IMG/VR virus record: IMGVR_UViG_3300045988_146774
Location: 96,001-160,000 of that record
Length of the DNA stretch: 64,000 nucleotides
DNA from: a virus
Direction: 5' to 3' (one strand)
Within the stretch, counting starts at the first letter, position 1. The number at the start of each line of letters is the position of its first letter. A program made the position numbers and the translations under genes. Below, one piece after another: positions 2,541-38,161 of this stretch. The notes under the pieces are model-generated. The model was not told where the DNA came from. It saw only the letters and a list, made by a program, of their open reading frames with translations, and did not search any database.

Positions 2541-3698
2541 ATGAATATTATTGAGACAAATTTAAAATTTGGGGCAATGACTAACAGAAAATCAACGAGT
2601 AGAATCATTCTGCATCATGCAGAAGCAAGTCATTGTACAGCAGCAGATATTCATCGTTGGCATTTAAATAATGGATGGGCTGGAGCTGGCTATCATTTTC
2701 TTGTAAGGAAAGATGGATCAATTTATAGATTGCGTCCAGAAAATAAAGTTGGCTCTCATGCGAAAGGTGCTAACTCAAATAGTATTGGAATCTGTTTTGA
2801 GGGAGCATACATGACAGAAACCATGCCACGGGCACAGATCAATGCCGGAAAGGAATTAGTGGCTTACTTAAAAAGTAAATATGGAATTTCGAAAGTACAG
2901 AGACATAGTGATGTTTATCCTACAAGTTGCCCAGGAACTAATTTCCCATTTGATGAAATTGCAGGTGCTTCCGGTAAAGTAAATGCGAACGTAATAAAGA
3001 ATAATTCTAATAATAACTCTTCTACTCTTTTAAAGGTTGGAAGTCGTGGAGCTTCTGTACAGGATGTTCAGAAAAAGTTAGTTGCTTTAGGATATAATGT
3101 TGGATCAACTGGAGCCGATGGTATTTTTGGTAATGCCACAAAAAATGCTGTTATTAAGTTCCAAGGCTCTGTTAGAATTTCAAAAGATGGCATCGTTGGT
3201 TCACAAACTCTTGCGAAATTAAATGAAGCATATAATAACAGAAATAAAGGACAGTCTGTTACTTCTACTACTTCTTATACAGGCAAAGATTATGTAAGAA
3301 AAGCTCAGGTACATATGAACAATTTTGCCGGTGCTGGTTTAGCAACTGACGGATTATGGGGAGCAAATAGTAGAAAAGGTCTTGTTAAATGTTTACAGAG
3401 AGCATTGAATAAAGATTATAAATTAAAATTAGGCGAAGATGGAATTAGAGGCAATGCCACTAATAACGCTCTTGGAAACCATTATGTAAAACGTGCTGAG
3501 ACTCAGTATCTTGTAACATTTGTTGAGATTGGATTAATGGCACTTGGATATTACAATAGTTCTGTAGAAGCTCCGGGAGTATTTGGTGGTGGATTAGAGA
3601 CTGCTGTTAGAAACTTCCAGTCAGCTCATGGATTAGTTTGCGATGGTATTGCTGGCAAAGGTACTATCTTAAAGATTCTTGCATGTCTTGGATGCTAA
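2541..3698 (+). CDS. endolysin: N-acetylmuramoyl-L-alanine amidase (Amidase_2/PGRP) with repeated PG_binding_1-like domains
   Basis: ILHHAE...GAGYHFLVRKDG...HSDVYPTSCPGTNFP are amidase_2 Zn-site motifs. About three repeats of the LGY..G.DGIFG..T..AV..FQ type. AAGGAG upstream of the ATG. Confidence 0.9.
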   Translation: MNIIETNLKFGAMTNRKSTSRIILHHAEASHCTAADIHRWHLNNGWAGAGYHFLVRKDGSIYRLRPENKVGSHAKGANSNSIGICFEGAYMTETMPRAQINAGKELVAYLKSKYGISKVQRHSDVYPTSCPGTNFPFDEIAGASGKVNANVIKNNSNNNSSTLLKVGSRGASVQDVQKKLVALGYNVGSTGADGIFGNATKNAVIKFQGSVRISKDGIVGSQTLAKLNEAYNNRNKGQSVTSTTSYTGKDYVRKAQVHMNNFAGAGLATDGLWGANSRKGLVKCLQRALNKDYKLKLGEDGIRGNATNNALGNHYVKRAETQYLVTFVEIGLMALGYYNSSVEAPGVFGGGLETAVRNFQSAHGLVCDGIAGKGTILKILACLGC

Positions 3699-3713
3699 AA
3701 TTAGATATAATTA

Positions 3714-3747
3714 TAGGGAATGGCTTAATCGTCATTCCCTATTTTTT
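3714..3747. terminator. bidirectional terminator between convergent endolysin and integrase
   Basis: Stem tagggaatg / cattcccta with a 10-nt loop, T-run after it on the + strand, A/T-rich before it. Confidence 0.6.
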
Positions 3748-3755
3748 ACGATTTT

Positions 3756-5087
3756 CTATTCAAATATTTCTTTAAGTTTTAAATATGCTTCATACAATTC
3801 TTGATTTTCTTTTGTTACGTTTTTTGGAAGTTTTTCATCTTCTTTTTTATAATCTGCGAGGATAGCTTGAGAAGGAGTCGTCACAGAACTAAGTCCCTCT
3901 TCTGTTGCATGTGTGTAAATGTTTTCTACACTGATGGCATTATGACCCATCATTAATGCGGTATTAATTACATTTGCTCCTTTTGATGAATTGGCAATTG
4001 TATCCATAGTATGTCTAAGAGAATGAATGCTTAATCCTCTCATTCCATTTCTTGTCATATGGACATCTCTGTCTACGCCAAGTTTGTCACAAAGAGTTTT
4101 AAATCCAACTTCTATCGTTTCATGAGTTCTTCTTTTGCCAGTGCTAAATACAGGGTAAAGTAAGTTGTCTGGATTATTTTTACAATAGATTTTCGTTTGT
4201 TCCATCATATATTGAGCACATTCTTTGGCTAAAGAAGACATGATAATAAATCTTGGTTTAGTATTTTTAGGAACCTTTGTATATCTTTCCAATCCTTTTG
4301 TTTTATCATTATCTATATATCTTGTTGCTTGAGATTCTACAACATATATTTTATTATTCTCGAAATCTATGTTGTCATTTCTAAGAGATGAAAATTCTCC
4401 AGATCTCAATCCTGTTTCAAGAATGAACATAACGACTACTGCATATTGCCCCATGTTATTTTTGTATGCATAATAAAATTTTTCGATGTCCTCTGGAGTA
4501 AATACTTCTTTTCTGTTTTTAACTTCTTCGTCTAATTTTTTGTCATATTCATCAATAATTTCTTTTTTTACTCTTGCTTGTTCTGCATAATTTTCTTTCA
4601 GAAGACTTCTATTGACTAACCATTTACAGCATCTTCGTGTTAATTGAATTGGGAAGCTGCAAGTTTTTCTGCTTTTTAATCCTAAAATAGTATCATAATA
4701 ACTTTCAAATTCTACTGCACTCAACATATGAAGTTGATATTTTGCTATTGGGAAATTATCAAAATTTGCCCTCATTGTATTAACATAGGAATGATACGTA
4801 CTTCCAGCAACAGTTGGTTTTACTTCTGTTTCTATATACTCATCCATATACTCACCGAAAGTTTTCTTTTTATCTACTTTGATATCTTTTCCCCTCTCGT
4901 ATTCCTTTTCCCAAGCATCTCTAGCCATTATAGATAATCGTCTTGCTTCTTTTTCTGTCTTGGCTGTTCGTTTAAATCTTTTTGGGTTTGCTGTTTTTGG
5001 ATTAAGATACTTTGCTTGGGTGATACATTCCCAAGAACCATTTTTTAATTGTCTGGTACTTCCTTCTCTGTTATCATTTTTATCCAT
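3756..5087 (-). CDS. int: tyrosine site-specific recombinase (phage integrase)
   Basis: TGLRSGE (box I Arg), HSLRHT (H-x-x-R) and GHNAISVENIYTH (His...Tyr). The ORF is open to 5093, but GGAGGG abuts that ATG, so the ATG at 5087 is the better-spaced start. Confidence 0.9.
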   Translation of the reverse strand: MDKNDNREGSTRQLKNGSWECITQAKYLNPKTANPKRFKRTAKTEKEARRLSIMARDAWEKEYERGKDIKVDKKKTFGEYMDEYIETEVKPTVAGSTYHSYVNTMRANFDNFPIAKYQLHMLSAVEFESYYDTILGLKSRKTCSFPIQLTRRCCKWLVNRSLLKENYAEQARVKKEIIDEYDKKLDEEVKNRKEVFTPEDIEKFYYAYKNNMGQYAVVVMFILETGLRSGEFSSLRNDNIDFENNKIYVVESQATRYIDNDKTKGLERYTKVPKNTKPRFIIMSSLAKECAQYMMEQTKIYCKNNPDNLLYPVFSTGKRRTHETIEVGFKTLCDKLGVDRDVHMTRNGMRGLSIHSLRHTMDTIANSSKGANVINTALMMGHNAISVENIYTHATEEGLSSVTTPSQAILADYKKEDEKLPKNVTKENQELYEAYLKLKEIFE

Positions 5088-5099
5088 TTTCATCCCTCC

Positions 5100-16264: not shown

Positions 16265-16353
16265 TATTGGTTTTATATTGCTCTTTACTATCTTTTTGTT
16301 ATCAAATTCATATGCACAAGCCCAGATTTTATCTCCAGGCTTAAAGTCTCTTG

Positions 16354-16566
16354 TTATCTCTCTGCTTGTATATGTTCCTTTTCAATTGTACTGGTGAATG
16401 ATAATGTTGTTTCACCTTTCTTTATATTTATATTCTCTACATTTCCAAGAATATCTCTTTCTTTAGTTGCTGAAGTCAGCGCAACTTCGTCTACATTATC
16501 TAGCGCAAGAACATTGTTACCATCATTATCTTGAAAGAACAGTGTTCCATTTTTCATTTCGTACAT
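16354..16566 (-). CDS. hypothetical protein
   Basis: ATG preceded by AAAGGAG. 70 aa. Confidence 0.5.
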   Translation of the reverse strand: MYEMKNGTLFFQDNDGNNVLALDNVDEVALTSATKERDILGNVENINIKKGETTLSFTSTIEKEHIQAER

Positions 16567-16903
16567 GCTATCTCCTTTTTAATGACTGACTCTCAATTAC
16601 AAGAGTCAGCCGTTGAAACCAAAATTTCATAATTAGAAGCACGTTCATTTCCGTACTTCATGAGAGCATTCTTGTTCCTCATATGTAGGATTGCGGTATG
16701 TTCTTGAGTATTATATTCTGAATGCACAGTGTCAACTCATACGCTCATCGGTTGACTGAAGTGTTACCAACAGCCTTCACCTTTACCTTTTCACCATCTC
16801 AGGCTTTCAGTTCTTTTCACCGCATTACCGATTCATTAGTTTGATCAAGACTAATGAATGAAAATTCAATTTCACAACTAGATGTTTGCAACCATCTAAT
16901 ATA
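16567..16903 (-). ncRNA. candidate structured non-coding RNA (class unknown)
   Basis: No credible ORF on either strand. Visibly more G+C than the flanks. Stems read in - strand orientation at + coordinates 16880-16897, 16832-16858 (9 bp), 16731-16756, 16660-16682, 16636-16659 (8 bp) and 16586-16609 (8 bp), plus nested ACTGAA/TTCAGT around AGCCT/AGGCT and long-range TGCGGT/ACCGCA. Confidence 0.4.
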
Positions 16904-17056
16904 TTATTCTCTTTGCAAATCACTATTGTCGTTATCGACAGGCTTAAATTCAAAAGGATCTTTTTGTCCTGCTTCAACAGTATTTACGCAAGATCCGGCA
17001 ATAAATCCACATAATACAAATCCTGCTGCAAATATAATTCCTTTAATTTTCTTCAT
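16904..17056 (-). CDS. small secreted peptide or lipoprotein (50 aa, below the track cutoff)
   Basis: ATG at 17056 preceded by GGAGA. MKKIKGIIFAAGFVLCGFIAGSC looks like a signal peptide. Confidence 0.45.
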   Translation of the reverse strand: MKKIKGIIFAAGFVLCGFIAGSCVNTVEAGQKDPFEFKPVDNDNSDLQRE

Positions 17057-17071
17057 AATTGTATCTCCATC

Positions 17072-17434
17072 TTAATTTATAACAGTTCCATTTTTATCAA
17101 AGCTTATTGATATGGATCCATCCATGTTCTTATATCTTGGGATATCTTCTGCCTTAATTACAATTTTCCTTGTTTTTACAAGACAATAATATGCAATAAA
17201 GAATTCATAATTAGATGAATTCGGAACTATTCTATATTCATCTTCTCCAGCTACTTGGATATCAAAGGGAACTTGCCTTCCAAGCTCTCCATCTCTGATT
17301 TCATATACTTGAATTGTATTTAATATGACATCATCTTTATGCAAATCAAAATAACGTCCTTTAAAGTAGTGTCTCATTAACAATCGTGTTATTTCTTTTG
17401 TATTTGTCATTTCTACCTCGTATTCTTCTTGCAA
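17072..17434 (-). CDS. hypothetical protein
   Basis: 120-aa co-oriented ORF. Confidence 0.55.
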   Translation of the reverse strand: MQEEYEVEMTNTKEITRLLMRHYFKGRYFDLHKDDVILNTIQVYEIRDGELGRQVPFDIQVAGEDEYRIVPNSSNYEFFIAYYCLVKTRKIVIKAEDIPRYKNMDGSISISFDKNGTVIN

Positions 17435-37412: not shown

Positions 37413-37464
37413 TCCGCTTAGAGGTAATTTATGAAAACTATTTTGACAACATATAGTTGCCGAT

Positions 37465-37538
37465 ACGGTTATGCAAGAATCGAACTCGCTACATATCATA
37501 TTTTCACAATGACTGCTCTACCAATGAGCTAATAACCG
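37465..37538 (-). tRNA. tRNA-Phe(GAA)-like with an enlarged anticodon arm
   Basis: Acceptor CGGTTAT/ATAACCG, D arm GCTC-ATTGGTA-GAGC, T arm GCGAG-TTCGATT-CTTGC. The anticodon arm GTCAT-TGTGAAAAT-ATGAT has a 9-nt loop, or a 7-nt GTGAAAA loop closed by a U.U pair. Confidence 0.6.
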
Positions 37539-37657
37539 TACTCTCTGTTCCAAATAATGTGCACTATTGTCTAAAAATATAAAACACCGGAGAATCATAA
37601 TTTAACGACATTTCATATAGCAATCATGGTTTCTCACGCCACTTTTGCTCAGAGAAA

Positions 37658-37682
37658 AGATGGATGGTGGATTCGAACCACC
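37658..37682 (-). pseudogene. orphan tRNA 3' half (T arm plus acceptor strand)
   Basis: GGTGG-TTCGAAT-CCACC followed by ATCCATC. The only complementary 5' acceptor strand (GGTGGGT, two G.U) is 115 nt upstream on the - strand at 37798-37804. Confidence 0.4.
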
Positions 37683-37922
37683 TTTATAAGATTCATTACC
37701 TCAAATGTGCATATTCTCGATAACTTCACTTACAACCACAGCGTTCCTACTCGTACTAGAATCTGTCATGCACAACATAATTCGTTCTGTTGCTGCCACC
37801 CACCAAATTTATAAGCGTACCCATGATTTCGCACATGACTGATTACGCAATGTCTTAAGCGCACTTTTCGCTAACCTTTATTACAGAGTGCTTTGGAAAA
37901 GTGTAAGGTCAAGTATCTCTCA

Positions 37923-37996
37923 TGGAGCGTGCTCGACTTGAACGGGCGATCTTATGCTTATGAGGCACATGCATTAACCAACTATGCTAACGCTCC
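37923..37996 (-). tRNA. tRNA with CAT anticodon (elongator Met, or Ile2 if lysidine-modified)
   Basis: 74-nt cloverleaf: GGAGCGT/ACGCTCC, D arm GCAT-AGTTGGTTA-ATGC, anticodon arm TGTGC-CTCATAA-GCATA, T arm GCCCG-TTCAAGT-CGAGC (one C.A mismatch). G1-C72 is paired, so it is not an initiator. Confidence 0.85.
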
Positions 37997-38088
37997 AGAA
38001 ACTTACAACTTTAAGGTAAGTTGCCAACCTGTTTTTGTGATAAAACATTAAATTTAGAAAGGAGTGTCTGATTGATAATTCAGACAAA

Positions 38089-38161
38089 CTAGGCTGGTGG
38101 GTACCGCCCCCACTGATATATGGGTCAAAGCCATATGTGTTTACTTATTCACCACAGCCCA
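38089..38161 (-). tRNA. tRNA-Gln(TTG) with non-canonical D and T loops
   Basis: 73 nt. TGGGCTG/CAGCCTA (U1-A72, G73), anticodon arm TATGG-CTTTGAC-CCATA, T stem GTGGG/CCCAC. The D loop AATAAGTAAA lacks GG and the T loop is GGCGGTA. Confidence 0.6.

What the first reader, a model, noticed from the sequence alone, without database searches (positions are those of the whole stretch)
16567..16903. G+C-enriched, hairpin-dense 337-nt ORF-free region: candidate novel structured RNA
This gap lies between a 50-aa secreted-peptide gene (16904-17056) and the next - strand gene (16354-16566), in an otherwise wall-to-wall coding operon. The only ORF in it is a low-complexity + strand artefact. It is visibly richer in G+C than its surroundings, which in AT-rich genomes is a classic signature of structured RNA. 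Read on the - strand it contains many stems: AGATG/CATCT (16880-16897), a 9-bp TTCATTAGT/ACTAATGAA (16832-16858), ACTGAA/TTCAGT enclosing AGCCT/AGGCT, GTCAAC/GTTGAC (16731-16756), long-range TGCGGT/ACCGCA, ATGAG/CTCAT (16660-16682), an 8-bp GAAGTACG/CGTGCTTC (16636-16659), and an 8-bp CTGACTCT/AGAGTCAG (16586-16609) ending about 15 nt before the SD of the next gene. I could not match it to any riboswitch or known phage RNA class from memory. The last hairpin sits at the SD, so it could be a cis-regulatory leader. It could equally be an independent phage ncRNA.
Basis: seen in the sequence. Interest (0 to 1): 0.72.

Follow-up and report, generated by a model that had tools for sequence, protein, structure and literature searches.

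The report
New pseudoknotted RNA in gut phages
The gap holds one copy of a roughly 195-base folded RNA, conserved in more than 100 human-gut phage contigs and matching no catalogued RNA family, whose shape is kept by compensating mutations but whose job is unknown.

Summary
The gap 16567-16903 is non-coding and every quoted stem is at its stated coordinates. The core is G+C-rich (0.42 against 0.32 for the window) and folds better than shuffles (z = -3.5).

The real feature is narrower than the gap. It is a 195-nt element at 16635-16829 on the - strand, present once in the window. I found about 115 copies in IMG/VR and human-gut metagenome contigs, in two subfamilies. They sit between at least 15 unrelated downstream and about 18 upstream gene contexts. 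None was found in cultured phages, plasmids or 185,579 species-representative genomes.

A ten-helix fold with one pseudoknot is strongly supported. On 58 distinct sequences, 99.1% of cells form standard pairs, against 35-42% when partners are slid. Twenty of 45 pairs show changes on both sides. G-U pairs place the RNA on the gene strand. No reading frame is conserved.

Rfam 15 gives no match. The group I intron model scores 92 bits on the SPbeta bnrdE intron but does not register here.

The RNA is accessory: a 98%-identical relative lacks it. The flanking "genes" are truncated remnants, and the hairpin at the SD belongs to the phage backbone.

Best reading: a new, self-contained structured RNA module of SPbeta-like gut phages. 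Its function is unknown.

The parts
16635..16829 (-). Conserved structured RNA core (195 nt), the only copy in the window
   Evidence: The covariance model R1 scores 227 bits (E = 8e-70) here and finds nothing else in the window. nhmmer and cmsearch find homologues in about 115 loci. G+C is 0.42.
16819..16824 (-). P1 5' strand (UGCGGU); pairs with 16692-16697
   Evidence: Alignment columns 6-11 with 135-140. The C-G pair becomes A-U in 30 of 58 sequences (UGAGGU/ACCUCA). 98.6% of cells pair.
16692..16697 (-). P1 3' strand (ACCGCA)
   Evidence: helix 1.
16785..16811 (-). P2 hairpin: P2a 16809-16811/16785-16787 and P2b 16802-16804/16793-16795, with an A-rich internal loop (GAAA/GAAAA) and loop UGAGAU
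   Evidence: All three P2a pairs and one P2b pair change on both sides. Examples: L152 has GUA/UAC and AGC/GCU, L160 has AUC/GAU, L005 has AUC/GAU in P2b. 98-99% of cells pair.
16750..16781 (-). P3 hairpin: P3a 16779-16781/16750-16752 and P3b 16771-16775/16754-16758, with a variable 12-nt loop
   Evidence: 99.4-100% of cells pair, with only one-sided changes such as G-U to A-U. This helix is the least tested by covariation.
16741..16746 (-). Pseudoknot helix PK, 5' strand (GAGCGU); pairs with 16664-16669 and crosses P1
   Evidence: Columns 86-91 with 172-177. 99.1% of cells pair. Two pairs change on both sides (L152 GGACGU/AUGUCC) and there are many G-U intermediates. This helix was not part of the CM that made the alignment.
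16664..16669 (-). Pseudoknot helix PK, 3' strand (AUGCUC)
   Evidence: helix 6.
16706..16738 (-). P4 (16735-16738/16706-16709) enclosing the P5 hairpin (16727-16729/16718-16720) and the invariant GAAUAUAAU
   Evidence: All four P4 pairs change on both sides (GAGU/ACUC, AGGC/GCCU, UGCC/GGCA). P5 is CUG/CAG in subfamily 1 and CUC/GAG in subfamily 2, with a UUCG loop in L152.
16676..16690 (-). P6 hairpin (UCCU/AGGA) with a loop of variable length
   Evidence: U-A becomes C-G in 19 of 58 sequences. The distribution cuts across the two subfamilies, so there was more than one event. A 2-nt loop indel breaks the 44-aa ORF frame.
16636..16659 (-). P7 hairpin (GAAGUACG/CGUGCUUC), the 3' end of the element
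   Evidence: Six of eight pairs change on both sides and 99.6% of cells pair.
16832..16858 (-). Flanking 9-bp hairpin TTCATTAGT/ACTAATGAA, 7 nt upstream of the core
   Evidence: Present only in part of subfamily 1. In L013 it lies upstream of the Zn-finger ORF rather than next to the RNA. It is not part of the conserved family. Subfamily 2 has an unrelated hairpin (P0) at this position.
16880..16897 (-). Flanking hairpin AGATG/CATCT
   Evidence: Shared with L001 and L014 as backbone sequence downstream of another gene. It lies outside the RNA family.
16586..16629 (-). Backbone hairpins (16614-16629 UGAAA/UUUCA and 16586-16609, 12 bp) before the SD of the next gene
   Evidence: Homology with L002, which lacks the RNA, resumes at window 16631. 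L001 and L108 carry compensatory variants of the 12-bp stem. No T-run follows, so it is not terminator-like.
16904..17056 (-). Truncated gene (50 aa), not an intact secreted-peptide gene
   Evidence: The gene is 85 aa in L001 4379-4636 and L002 4376-4633, identical up to ...DLQ. The deletion breakpoint is near window 16912.
16354..16566 (-). Truncated gene (70 aa)
   Evidence: The gene is 136 aa in L002 and 143 aa in L001. A second deletion breakpoint lies near window 16375-16378.
16593..16727 (-). 44-aa GTG ORF inside the RNA: chance ORF
   Evidence: The start codon and frame are not conserved, with stops after 2-29 codons in most relatives. Variable columns show no codon periodicity.

Best explanation
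Window 16635-16829 (- strand) encodes one copy of a previously uncatalogued structured RNA family of about 195 nt, found in SPbeta-like phages of the human gut.

**Shown.** The transcript strand folds into a closing helix P1 that encloses two bipartite hairpins (P2, P3) and a P4/P5 arm. Hairpins P6 and P7 follow. A six-pair pseudoknot links the P3-P4 junction to the P6-P7 junction. The junctions are A-rich and highly conserved.

**Shown.** The element behaves as a discrete cassette with sharp ends. It lies inside same-strand operons in the variable accessory region of these phages, where DNA methyltransferase, NAD synthase and PARG genes sit. Its neighbours differ from phage to phage, and it is dispensable.

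**Inferred.** It is co-transcribed with the operon. It acts through its own three-dimensional fold, by binding a protein or small ligand or by catalysing a reaction on itself. It does not act as the dedicated regulator of one particular neighbouring gene. Which of these activities it has is unknown.
For: **Family and boundaries.**
- Exact-pattern scans followed by nhmmer and cmsearch give about 115 copies scoring 173-242 bits, in two subfamilies.
- Homology starts and stops sharply while the flanks are unrelated.

**Structure.**
- 99.1% of 2548 cells form standard pairs, against 35-42% with slid partners.
- 20 of 45 pairs change on both sides, against 1-6 in slid controls and 8.1 +/- 1.6 in shuffles. 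No shuffle out of 500 reaches the observed values.
- The independent MAFFT alignment gives 99.0% paired.
- The pseudoknot helix was not in the CM, yet it holds at 99.1% with two pairs changed on both sides.

**Strand.** 11.2% of cells are G-U. The same pairs read on the opposite strand are only 88.5% standard.

**Non-coding.**
- No frame is conserved on either strand, and variable columns by phase are 13/11/13, 5/9/8 and 11/11/9.
- The antisense ORF has no relative among 5.8 billion clustered proteins.

**Independence from neighbours.**
- At least 15 unrelated downstream protein families and about 18 upstream contexts were found, with no shared Pfam function.
- In about ten subfamily-1 contexts the next 50 nt hold no SD. 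Instead the RNA is followed by the backbone AT-rich hairpin, in most of them with a T-run, and in several of them a promoter-like stretch comes next.
- Predicted SD pairing has no consistent partner.

**Accessory status.**
- L002 is 98% identical in the flanks but carries about 3 kb of other genes in place of the RNA.
- In L032 an IS element replaced the 3' half.

**Conservation pattern.** Unpaired columns vary less than paired ones (0.54 against 0.69 variable), as expected for a tertiary fold.

**No known family.**
Against: - There is no transcript evidence, and no promoter or terminator of its own is evident.
- In subfamily 2 an SD begins 7-12 nt after the element in nearly every context examined, and all 15 loci carrying the MTDLLDLF gene also carry the RNA. 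This fits a portable 5' leader equally well.
- All copies are at least about 80% alike and fall into two main clades. Many counted compensatory cells therefore descend from few events.
- Helix P3 is supported only by invariance and one-sided changes.
- The alignment A3 was fitted to the model's structure, though not to the pseudoknot.
- No partner protein, ligand or substrate is identified, so the mechanism remains inference.
Confidence: 0.55

Rival explanations
1. It is a portable cis-acting 5' leader, such as a riboswitch, a protein-binding leader, or a stabiliser or translation enhancer. On this view it controls whichever gene lies immediately downstream, and recombination at its ends swaps that gene.
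For: - The orientation always matches the downstream gene.
- In subfamily 2 an SD starts 7-12 nt after P7 in nearly every context examined, across at least ten unrelated genes.
- Three subfamily-1 contexts have an SD 14 nt after the element.
- All 15 loci with the MTDLLDLF gene carry the RNA.
- The pyrimidine-rich 3' strand of P7 (CUCUU/CUUCU) is complementary to SD sequences (read).
- Conserved junctions and a pseudoknot are typical of aptamers.
Against: - The downstream genes share no function.
- No expression platform is conserved. The SD's predicted partner differs between contexts and its pairing probability ranges from 0.1 to 1.0.
- In the window the SD-proximal hairpin is backbone that exists without the RNA.
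- In about ten subfamily-1 contexts the next 50 nt hold no SD. The RNA is followed by the backbone hairpin, in most with a T-run, and in several a promoter-like stretch comes next.
- No known riboswitch class matches.
Confidence: 0.25
2. It is a ribozyme carried as a selfish or processing element. It could be a degenerate group-I-like core, or a new self-cleaving class that cuts the polycistronic mRNA at its borders.
For: - The helix order P1(5')-P2-P3-PK(5')-P4/5-P1(3')-P6-PK(3')-P7 resembles the group I order P3-[P4-P6]-P7-[P7.1/7.2]-P3'-P8-P7'-P9. That comparison rests on my recollection of group I architecture.
- Short resemblances exist to the group I consensus printed. AAUGCGGUGAAAA resembles AAUUGCGGgAAA, and AUAAGGAUGCUC resembles gAAGAUAUAGUC.
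- SPbeta-like phages do carry group I introns.
- The element has a sporadic, cassette-like distribution and lies between cistrons.
- A putative homing endonuclease, judged from its C-terminal sequence motif only, sits next to it in L083.
Against: - RF00028 does not report the RNA even at E <= 10 on 261-271 nt, yet it scores 92.4 bits on the 216-nt SPbeta bnrdE intron.
- Model R1 finds nothing in the SPbeta intron region.
- No P1 or internal guide is conserved, and there is no conserved G at the 3' border.
- The element does not interrupt any ORF.
- The P4/P5 equivalents would be only 3 bp each.
- No hammerhead, twister, pistol, hatchet or HDV-like match was found.
Confidence: 0.12
3. It is not an RNA. 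It is either a DNA-level element (recombination or attachment site, origin, operator cluster, or miniature IS200/IS605 derivative) or sequence debris left by the deletions that truncated both flanking genes.
For: - Both flanking genes are deletion-truncated.
- The element marks mosaic junctions.
- An invariant TATAAT lies inside it, with a TTGACA-like hexamer in subfamily 1.
- An IS605-type TnpB element abuts it in L012/L032.
Against: - Debris would not be conserved in about 115 loci with 20 pairs changed on both sides.
- Pairing is strand-asymmetric: 99.1% standard on the gene strand against 88.5% on the other, with 11% G-U. That points to RNA.
- The -35-like hexamer and its spacing are not conserved in subfamily 2.
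- None of 49 related TnpB loci except L032 contains any part of the element, and the IS ends are unrelated to it.
- There is one copy per window and no terminal repeats.
Confidence: 0.05

Closest known systems
Orphan structured ncRNAs of bacteria and phages (raiA motif, about 200 nt; GOLLD, ROOL, HEARO/IscB omega-RNA)
   Same: These are multi-helix, pseudoknot-containing RNAs with highly conserved junctions. They were found by comparative genomics, are often carried by phages or prophages, and had no known function when discovered. (From my knowledge of the Breaker and Weinberg motif papers.)
   Different: There is no sequence or structure match to any of them in Rfam 15. This RNA is smaller than GOLLD and ROOL. 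It has no associated nuclease gene, unlike HEARO. It has no fixed neighbour gene, unlike raiA.
Group I intron catalytic core (Rfam RF00028), for example the SPbeta bnrdE intron
   Same: Size is similar (about 200 nt). Both have a pseudoknot formed by two long-range helices with hairpins inserted between them, and both have A-rich junctions. Both occur in SPbeta-type phages.
   Different: It fails the family model, whereas the control intron scores 92 bits. It lacks a conserved P1 or guide sequence and a terminal G. It lies between genes, not within one.
Riboswitch aptamers
   Same: Both have a compact conserved fold with a pseudoknot, are encoded on the gene strand, and often lie just upstream of an SD.
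   Different: The downstream genes are functionally unrelated. No terminator or SD-sequestering helix is conserved. Some copies have no downstream gene nearby.
PeSL 'mobile regulatory cassettes' of T4-type phages (Arbiol, Comeau and Krisch 2010, from memory)
   Same: Both are conserved non-coding cassettes that lie at the borders of shuffled accessory genes in hyperplastic regions of large phages.
   Different: PeSLs are short promoter-plus-stem-loop units repeated many times per genome. This element is a single-copy, 195-nt, pseudoknotted RNA with covariation.
Bulk catalogues of candidate structured RNAs from IMG/VR (Fremin, Bhatt and Kyrpides 2023, PMC10690425)
   Same: The data source (IMG/VR, human gut) and the evidence type (covariation in intergenic regions) are the same. 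That study reports 8495 novel candidates, four of them typically upstream of DNA N-6-adenine methyltransferase genes.
   Different: Those candidates average 67 nt and are unnamed. Their tables were not available to me, so I could not check whether parts of this motif are listed. None has entered Rfam 15.

Membership tests
Any Rfam 15 family (4227 models) | Covariance-model score at or above the family's gathering threshold | tested here: not met
   The whole window at gathering threshold gives only two tRNAs. Permissive scans (E <= 10) of 16400-17100, of 16610-16870 and of a subfamily-2 copy give only chance-level hits of 18 bits or less to eukaryotic snoRNA, miRNA and lncRNA models.
Group I intron (RF00028) | Match to the catalytic-core model | tested here: not met
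   No hit was reported at E <= 10. As a positive control, the SPbeta bnrdE intron scores 92.4 bits (E = 7e-23) with the same tool. The reverse search with R1 on that region found 0 hits.
Group I intron (RF00028) | P1 helix with a U-G pair at the 5' splice site, and a conserved terminal G at the 3' splice site | tested here: not met
   Conservation begins at (A/U)AAUG directly before P1 and ends at the last pair of P7. The 5' flanks are of at least three unrelated kinds, and the first G after P7 is at variable positions.
Group I intron (RF00028) | Interrupts a gene whose reading frame is restored by excision | tested here: not met
   The upstream ORFs end with stop codons 0-100 nt before the element. 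The downstream ORFs have their own SD and start codon. There are at least 15 unrelated downstream families.
Group I intron (RF00028) | P3/P7 pseudoknot with a P4-P6 domain between them | tested here: inconclusive
   A comparable helix order exists. However, the P4/P5 equivalents are 3 bp each, and the mapping rests on my recollection of group I architecture.
Riboswitch | Conserved aptamer coupled to a conserved expression platform (terminator/antiterminator or SD-sequestering helix) | tested here: not met
   The aptamer-like core is conserved, but no platform is. No terminator-like site is found in the window. The AT-rich hairpin after subfamily-1 copies also exists in L002 without the RNA. 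SD pairing partners are inconsistent.
Riboswitch | Downstream genes belong to one pathway or transport function | tested here: not met
   The downstream families are unrelated small proteins. Only a Zn-ribbon and an RNA polymerase alpha-CTD-like domain are recognisable.
Riboswitch | Binds a small-molecule ligand | not testable with these tools
   This needs in-line probing or ITC.
IS200/IS605 miniature element (PATE) or TnpB omega-RNA | Shares its ends or scaffold with a full-length IS carrying tnpA/tnpB | tested here: not met
   A profile search of 49 TnpB loci finds the element only in L032, and there only its 5' half, outside the IS borders (2922-4219). The IS 3' end is unrelated.
Small protein gene | Conserved start, frame and length, and third-position bias of substitutions | tested here: not met
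   The sense 44-aa ORF has its start or frame lost in most copies. The antisense stop-free stretch varies from 30 to 60 aa without a conserved start. There is no codon periodicity and no protein relative.
Intrinsic terminator or simple REP-like hairpin cluster | G+C-rich stem followed by a T-run, or repeated copies in the genome | tested here: not met
   There are 0 terminator-like sites in 16300-17200 and a single copy in 64 kb. Long-range helices and a pseudoknot are present.

The most novel reading that the evidence does not exclude
The RNA is the founding member of a new functional class. One possibility is a new ribozyme that processes or caps phage operon transcripts at its own borders. 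Another is an RNA decoy or aptamer that phages carry in their anti-defence gene region to bind a host immune protein or signalling nucleotide. Either would add a mid-sized (about 200 nt) catalytic or ligand-binding fold from the human gut virome to the short list of natural ones.
Probability: 0.2. Interest if true: 0.85.

Novelty: categorically new. Interest (0 to 1): 0.66.

Why it matters
Natural RNAs of this size, with a pseudoknot, conserved junctions and this much covariation, have usually turned out to be ribozymes, riboswitches or scaffolds of RNA-protein machines. HEARO, for example, became the IscB guide RNA.

This one is abundant in human-gut phage contigs but absent from every cultured phage, plasmid and reference genome searched. 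It sits among DNA methyltransferase, NAD synthase and PARG genes, the kind of region where phages keep counter-defence functions.

It is short enough for direct biochemistry and cryo-EM. A well-defined alignment, structure and covariance model now exist, so its function can be tested directly. It can also be submitted to Rfam so that gut-virome annotation stops leaving it as an unexplained gap.

Tried and rejected
- **Known RNA family.** Five Rfam scans, including permissive ones on both subfamilies and one positive control, gave no match.
- **Cultured relatives.** blastn and megablast of the region, of 14 kb around it and of the most divergent copy found nothing in 50,697 phage genomes. The core found nothing in 72,556 plasmids. 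Two pattern scans of 185,579 species genomes gave 0 hits.
- **Coding.** The sense 44-aa ORF and the antisense low-complexity ORF were both rejected.
- **Miniature IS605 element or TnpB guide RNA.** The idea came from the TnpB gene abutting the half-element in L012. The IS turned out to be an unrelated insertion shared with about 40 other loci that lack the RNA.
- **Group I intron.** Rejected as a member.
They pair in 92.5% of cells and break in 15-19 sequences, which is inferior to P2/P3/P4.
- **Internal sigma-70 promoter around the invariant TATAAT.** The -35-like hexamer and spacing are not conserved in subfamily 2, and helices span it.
- **Conserved SD-sequestering helix.** None found.
- **Obligate protein partner next to the RNA.** The Zn-finger ORF occurs only in 35 subfamily-1 loci. 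It is absent from the window and from subfamily 2.
- **Empty sites with both flanks conserved.** All 15 loci with the chosen downstream gene carried the RNA, so no clean empty site was obtained.
- **Literature.** Sequence strings and topic searches found no description. The IMG/VR candidate catalogue could not be checked because its tables are not held.
Full report
**1. What is in the window**

The region 16567-16903 lies in a long run of - strand genes. Pfam hits on the surrounding large ORFs identify the window as a phage replication and nucleotide-metabolism module. They include a DnaE-type polymerase, a RecD2-like helicase, NAD-dependent ligase, NrdD, ThyX, FolD, RecJ, DnaB, an RNA ligase and an integrase. 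The polymerase is 39% identical over its full length to YorL of Bacillus phage SPbeta. The window is therefore an SPbeta-like phage. Its metagenome relatives come from human-gut assemblies.

The gap holds only short ORFs. Its G+C is 0.371. The central 195 nt reach 0.421, against a window mean of 0.319. Only 0.2% of equal-sized windows match that value. The - strand folds 3.5 sd better than dinucleotide shuffles. The + strand also folds well (z = -4.25), so fold energy alone does not choose a strand.

**2. The flanks are scars and the gap is composite**

Two IMG/VR contigs are about 98% identical to the window on both sides.

- In them the '50-aa secreted peptide' is an 85-aa protein, and the 70-aa gene is a 136-143-aa protein.
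- The window has lost about 1.25 kb (four small genes) at about 16912, and another 0.9-1.2 kb at about 16376.
- Relative L001 keeps the central part of the gap, with a 72-aa Zn-finger ORF in front of it.
- Relative L002 lacks window 16632-16912 altogether. It carries about 3 kb of other genes there, including a radical-SAM protein. Homology resumes at 16631.

It follows that the two hairpins nearest the next gene's SD (16614-16629 and 16586-16609) are phage backbone, not part of the conserved element. The element itself is dispensable.

**3. A discrete, widespread element**

Four exact-pattern scans of IMG/VR and one of the metagenome collection were taken from different parts of the core. Profile and covariance-model searches followed. 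Together they recovered about 115 copies in contigs of up to about 500 kb, many of them 90-216 kb.

- Conservation starts at (A/U)AAUG(C/A)GG and stops at the last pair of the 3' hairpin.
- The sequence on either side is unrelated between contexts.
- There are two subfamilies. Subfamily 1 includes the window. Subfamily 2 carries an additional 5' hairpin (P0), and an SD follows 7-12 nt after the element in nearly every context examined.
- The window has a single copy: 227 bits at 16635-16829, with nothing else above noise.
- No copy was found in 50,697 cultured phage genomes, 72,556 plasmids or 185,579 species-representative genomes.

**4. It is a structured RNA on the gene strand**

RNAalifold on an independent MAFFT alignment of 46 distinct copies proposed most helices. 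I added the closing helix P1 and the small hairpin P5. I also wrote the long-range helix 86-91/172-177 as a pseudoknot, because it crosses P1.

| Measure | MAFFT alignment A2 | CM alignment A3, 58 distinct copies |
|---|---|---|
| Cells forming standard pairs | 99.0% | 99.1% |
| Same, with 3' partners slid 1-3 columns | 35-41% | 35-42% |
| Pairs with a change on both sides | 10 | 20 of 45 |
| Same, slid controls | 2-6 | 1-6 |
| Same, shuffles | 7.2 +/- 1.0 | 8.1 +/- 1.6 |
| Shuffles reaching the observed values | 0-2 of 500 on four of five measures | 0 of 500 |

- Several changes are independent events. The P6 U-A/C-G split cuts across the subfamilies. L005, L152 and L160 each carry private compensatory changes in P2, P4, P7 and the pseudoknot.
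- The pseudoknot was not part of the model that produced A3, so its 99.1% pairing and two doubly changed pairs are not an artefact of model fitting.
- P3 is invariant or changes on one side only, so it is the least tested helix.
- G-U pairs make up 11.2% of cells. Read on the opposite strand, only 88.5% of cells would pair. The RNA is therefore on the - strand, the same strand as the genes.
- Unpaired columns are more conserved than paired ones. That pattern is expected for a tertiary fold with functional junctions.

**5. It is not coding**

- All three - strand frames carry stops, apart from a 44-aa GTG ORF.
- That ORF's start and frame are lost in most copies, partly through a 2-nt indel in the P6 loop.
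- The antisense stop-free stretch arises because the antisense strand is pyrimidine-rich. It has no conserved start, and no relative among the protein clusters searched.
- Variable columns show no three-base periodicity.

**6.

- P1 (TGCGGT/ACCGCA) and P7 (GAAGTACG/CGTGCTTC) are right.
- The nested ACTGAA/TTCAGT plus AGCCT/AGGCT, and GTCAAC/GTTGAC, do form in the window's own minimum-energy fold. They break in 15-19 of 46 relatives. The P2, P3 and P4 pairings that use the same bases hold in 98-100% of cells.
- They could still be an alternative conformer. I have no evidence for or against that.

**7. What it is not**

- *Known RNA families.* Rfam 15 gives nothing at gathering thresholds or at E <= 10 on either subfamily.
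- *Group I intron.* The helix order loosely resembles a group I core, and SPbeta phages carry such introns, so I ran a control. The same tool scores the 216-nt SPbeta bnrdE intron at 92.4 bits. My model finds nothing in that region. The element also lacks a conserved P1 or guide, lacks a terminal G, and interrupts no gene. Membership is rejected. A distant ribozyme-like mechanism is not excluded.
- *IS605-type element.* A TnpB element abuts a half-copy in L012/L032. That IS is shared with about 40 loci that lack the RNA, and its ends are unrelated.

**8. Context and likely mode of action**

Across 115 loci the commonest neighbours are:

| Neighbour | Loci |
|---|---|
| D12 Dam methyltransferase | 48 |
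| N6/N4 methyltransferase | 30 |
| Radical-SAM protein | 26 |
| NAD synthase | 21 |
| PAPS-reductase-like protein | 16 |

PAPS-reductase-like proteins form two clusters, and the 16 loci are those of one of them. A microbial-type PARG and the DNA ligase also recur. This corresponds to the variable yor-yos region of SPbeta.

The genes immediately downstream fall into at least 15 unrelated families of small proteins. The upstream contexts number about 18.

- *For a portable 5' leader.* The SD spacing in subfamily 2 is tight, and all 15 loci with one particular downstream gene carry the RNA.
- *Against it.* No expression platform is conserved. The predicted SD partners are inconsistent. In about ten subfamily-1 contexts the next 50 nt hold no SD. 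There the RNA is followed by the backbone hairpin, in most with a T-run, and in several a promoter-like stretch comes next. In the window the SD-proximal hairpin is backbone.

On balance I favour a self-contained RNA that works through its own fold, as a protein or ligand binder or as a ribozyme. I put that at 0.55, the portable cis-leader at 0.25, the ribozyme or selfish-element reading at 0.12, and non-RNA explanations at 0.05.

What is shown: the element's existence, borders, strand, fold, non-coding nature, accessory status and lack of any catalogued relative. What is inferred: that it is transcribed as part of the operon, and how it acts.

**9. Novelty**

The element belongs to no family in Rfam 15. 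I found no description in the literature searched. A bulk catalogue of 8495 unnamed IMG/VR candidates exists (PMC10690425), and I could not inspect its tables. Fragments of this motif may therefore already be listed there anonymously.

As a defined RNA class with a specified pseudoknotted architecture, it is new. Its size and complexity put it among the minority of orphan RNAs that are worth experimental work.

Noticed in passing
window 16904-17056 and 16354-16566 (- strand): Both genes flanking the gap are 3'-truncated versions of longer genes in 98%-identical relatives: 85 aa for the first, 136-143 aa for the second. This phage has lost about 1.25 kb and about 0.9-1.2 kb at two breakpoints (about 16912 and about 16376).
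   Followed up: yes
L012 1-580 / L032 2922-4219: An IS200/IS605-type element encoding TnpB (MLKAYKYRIYPN...) sits where the 3' half of the RNA should be. Its left end carries the hairpin ATGGGTTCGCAATCCCAT. The same IS, 79-83% identical in the seven closest contigs compared, occurs in other gut-phage contigs; about 40 related TnpB loci were found in all.
   Followed up: partly
L084, L141, L103, L098, L137, L154, L092, L143, L096, L164, L148 and L173, about 15-70 nt upstream of the subfamily-2 RNA: A perfect 12-14-bp AT-rich palindrome (ACTATATATAGTGT ... ACACTATATATAGT) is followed by TAATATTTTTAC. L154 shows symmetric changes (AGCGT/ACGCT). It could be an operator overlapping a promoter-like TTTATA-N18-TATAGT, or a weak bidirectional terminator.
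   Followed up: no
subfamily-2 loci, for example L084 about 3790-3829: Subfamily 2 has an extra conserved 5' block, CAUAGAUUU-CUUCUGC-UCUA-GCAGAG-AAUAUAUAAA. It forms a hairpin (P0) with a conserved U-G pair. L112 carries one compensatory change (CCG/CGG). The window has an unrelated 9-bp hairpin (16832-16858) at the equivalent place.
   Followed up: partly
L001 5830-6048 and 34 other subfamily-1 loci: A 62-84-aa Zn-ribbon-like ORF (CPMCGKPM...CCNLFCRRY) ends 0-7 nt before the RNA in 35 loci. Two other Cys-rich small ORFs take its place in other loci. None is present in the window or in subfamily 2. A possible but non-obligate partner.
   Followed up: partly
+/-5 kb around the RNA in 115 loci: The neighbourhood is rich in DNA methyltransferases (D12 and N6/N4), NAD synthase, a microbial-type PARG, radical-SAM and PAPS-reductase-like genes. 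It looks like a counter-defence and DNA-modification accessory region, equivalent to the yor-yos region of SPbeta.
   Followed up: partly
window 37464-38161 (- strand): Three phage tRNA genes: Phe-GAA, Met-CAT and Gln-TTG. The Gln gene is found by ARAGORN only.
   Followed up: no
window 3756-5093 (- strand): A tyrosine-type integrase (Pfam Phage_integrase), so the phage is probably temperate. Even so, no copy of the RNA was found in 185,579 reference genomes.
   Followed up: no
L083, ORF ending 41 nt upstream of the RNA: A 253-aa protein ends in ...KQKTAGGYIWRYADE. This resembles the DNA-binding tail of free-standing phage homing endonucleases. The call rests on motif recognition only and was not tested against Pfam.
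   Followed up: no
L083, L114 and L126, the gene immediately downstream of the RNA: A 63-aa protein consisting only of an RNA polymerase alpha-subunit C-terminal domain (Pfam RNA_pol_A_CTD, E = 5e-11).
   Followed up: no
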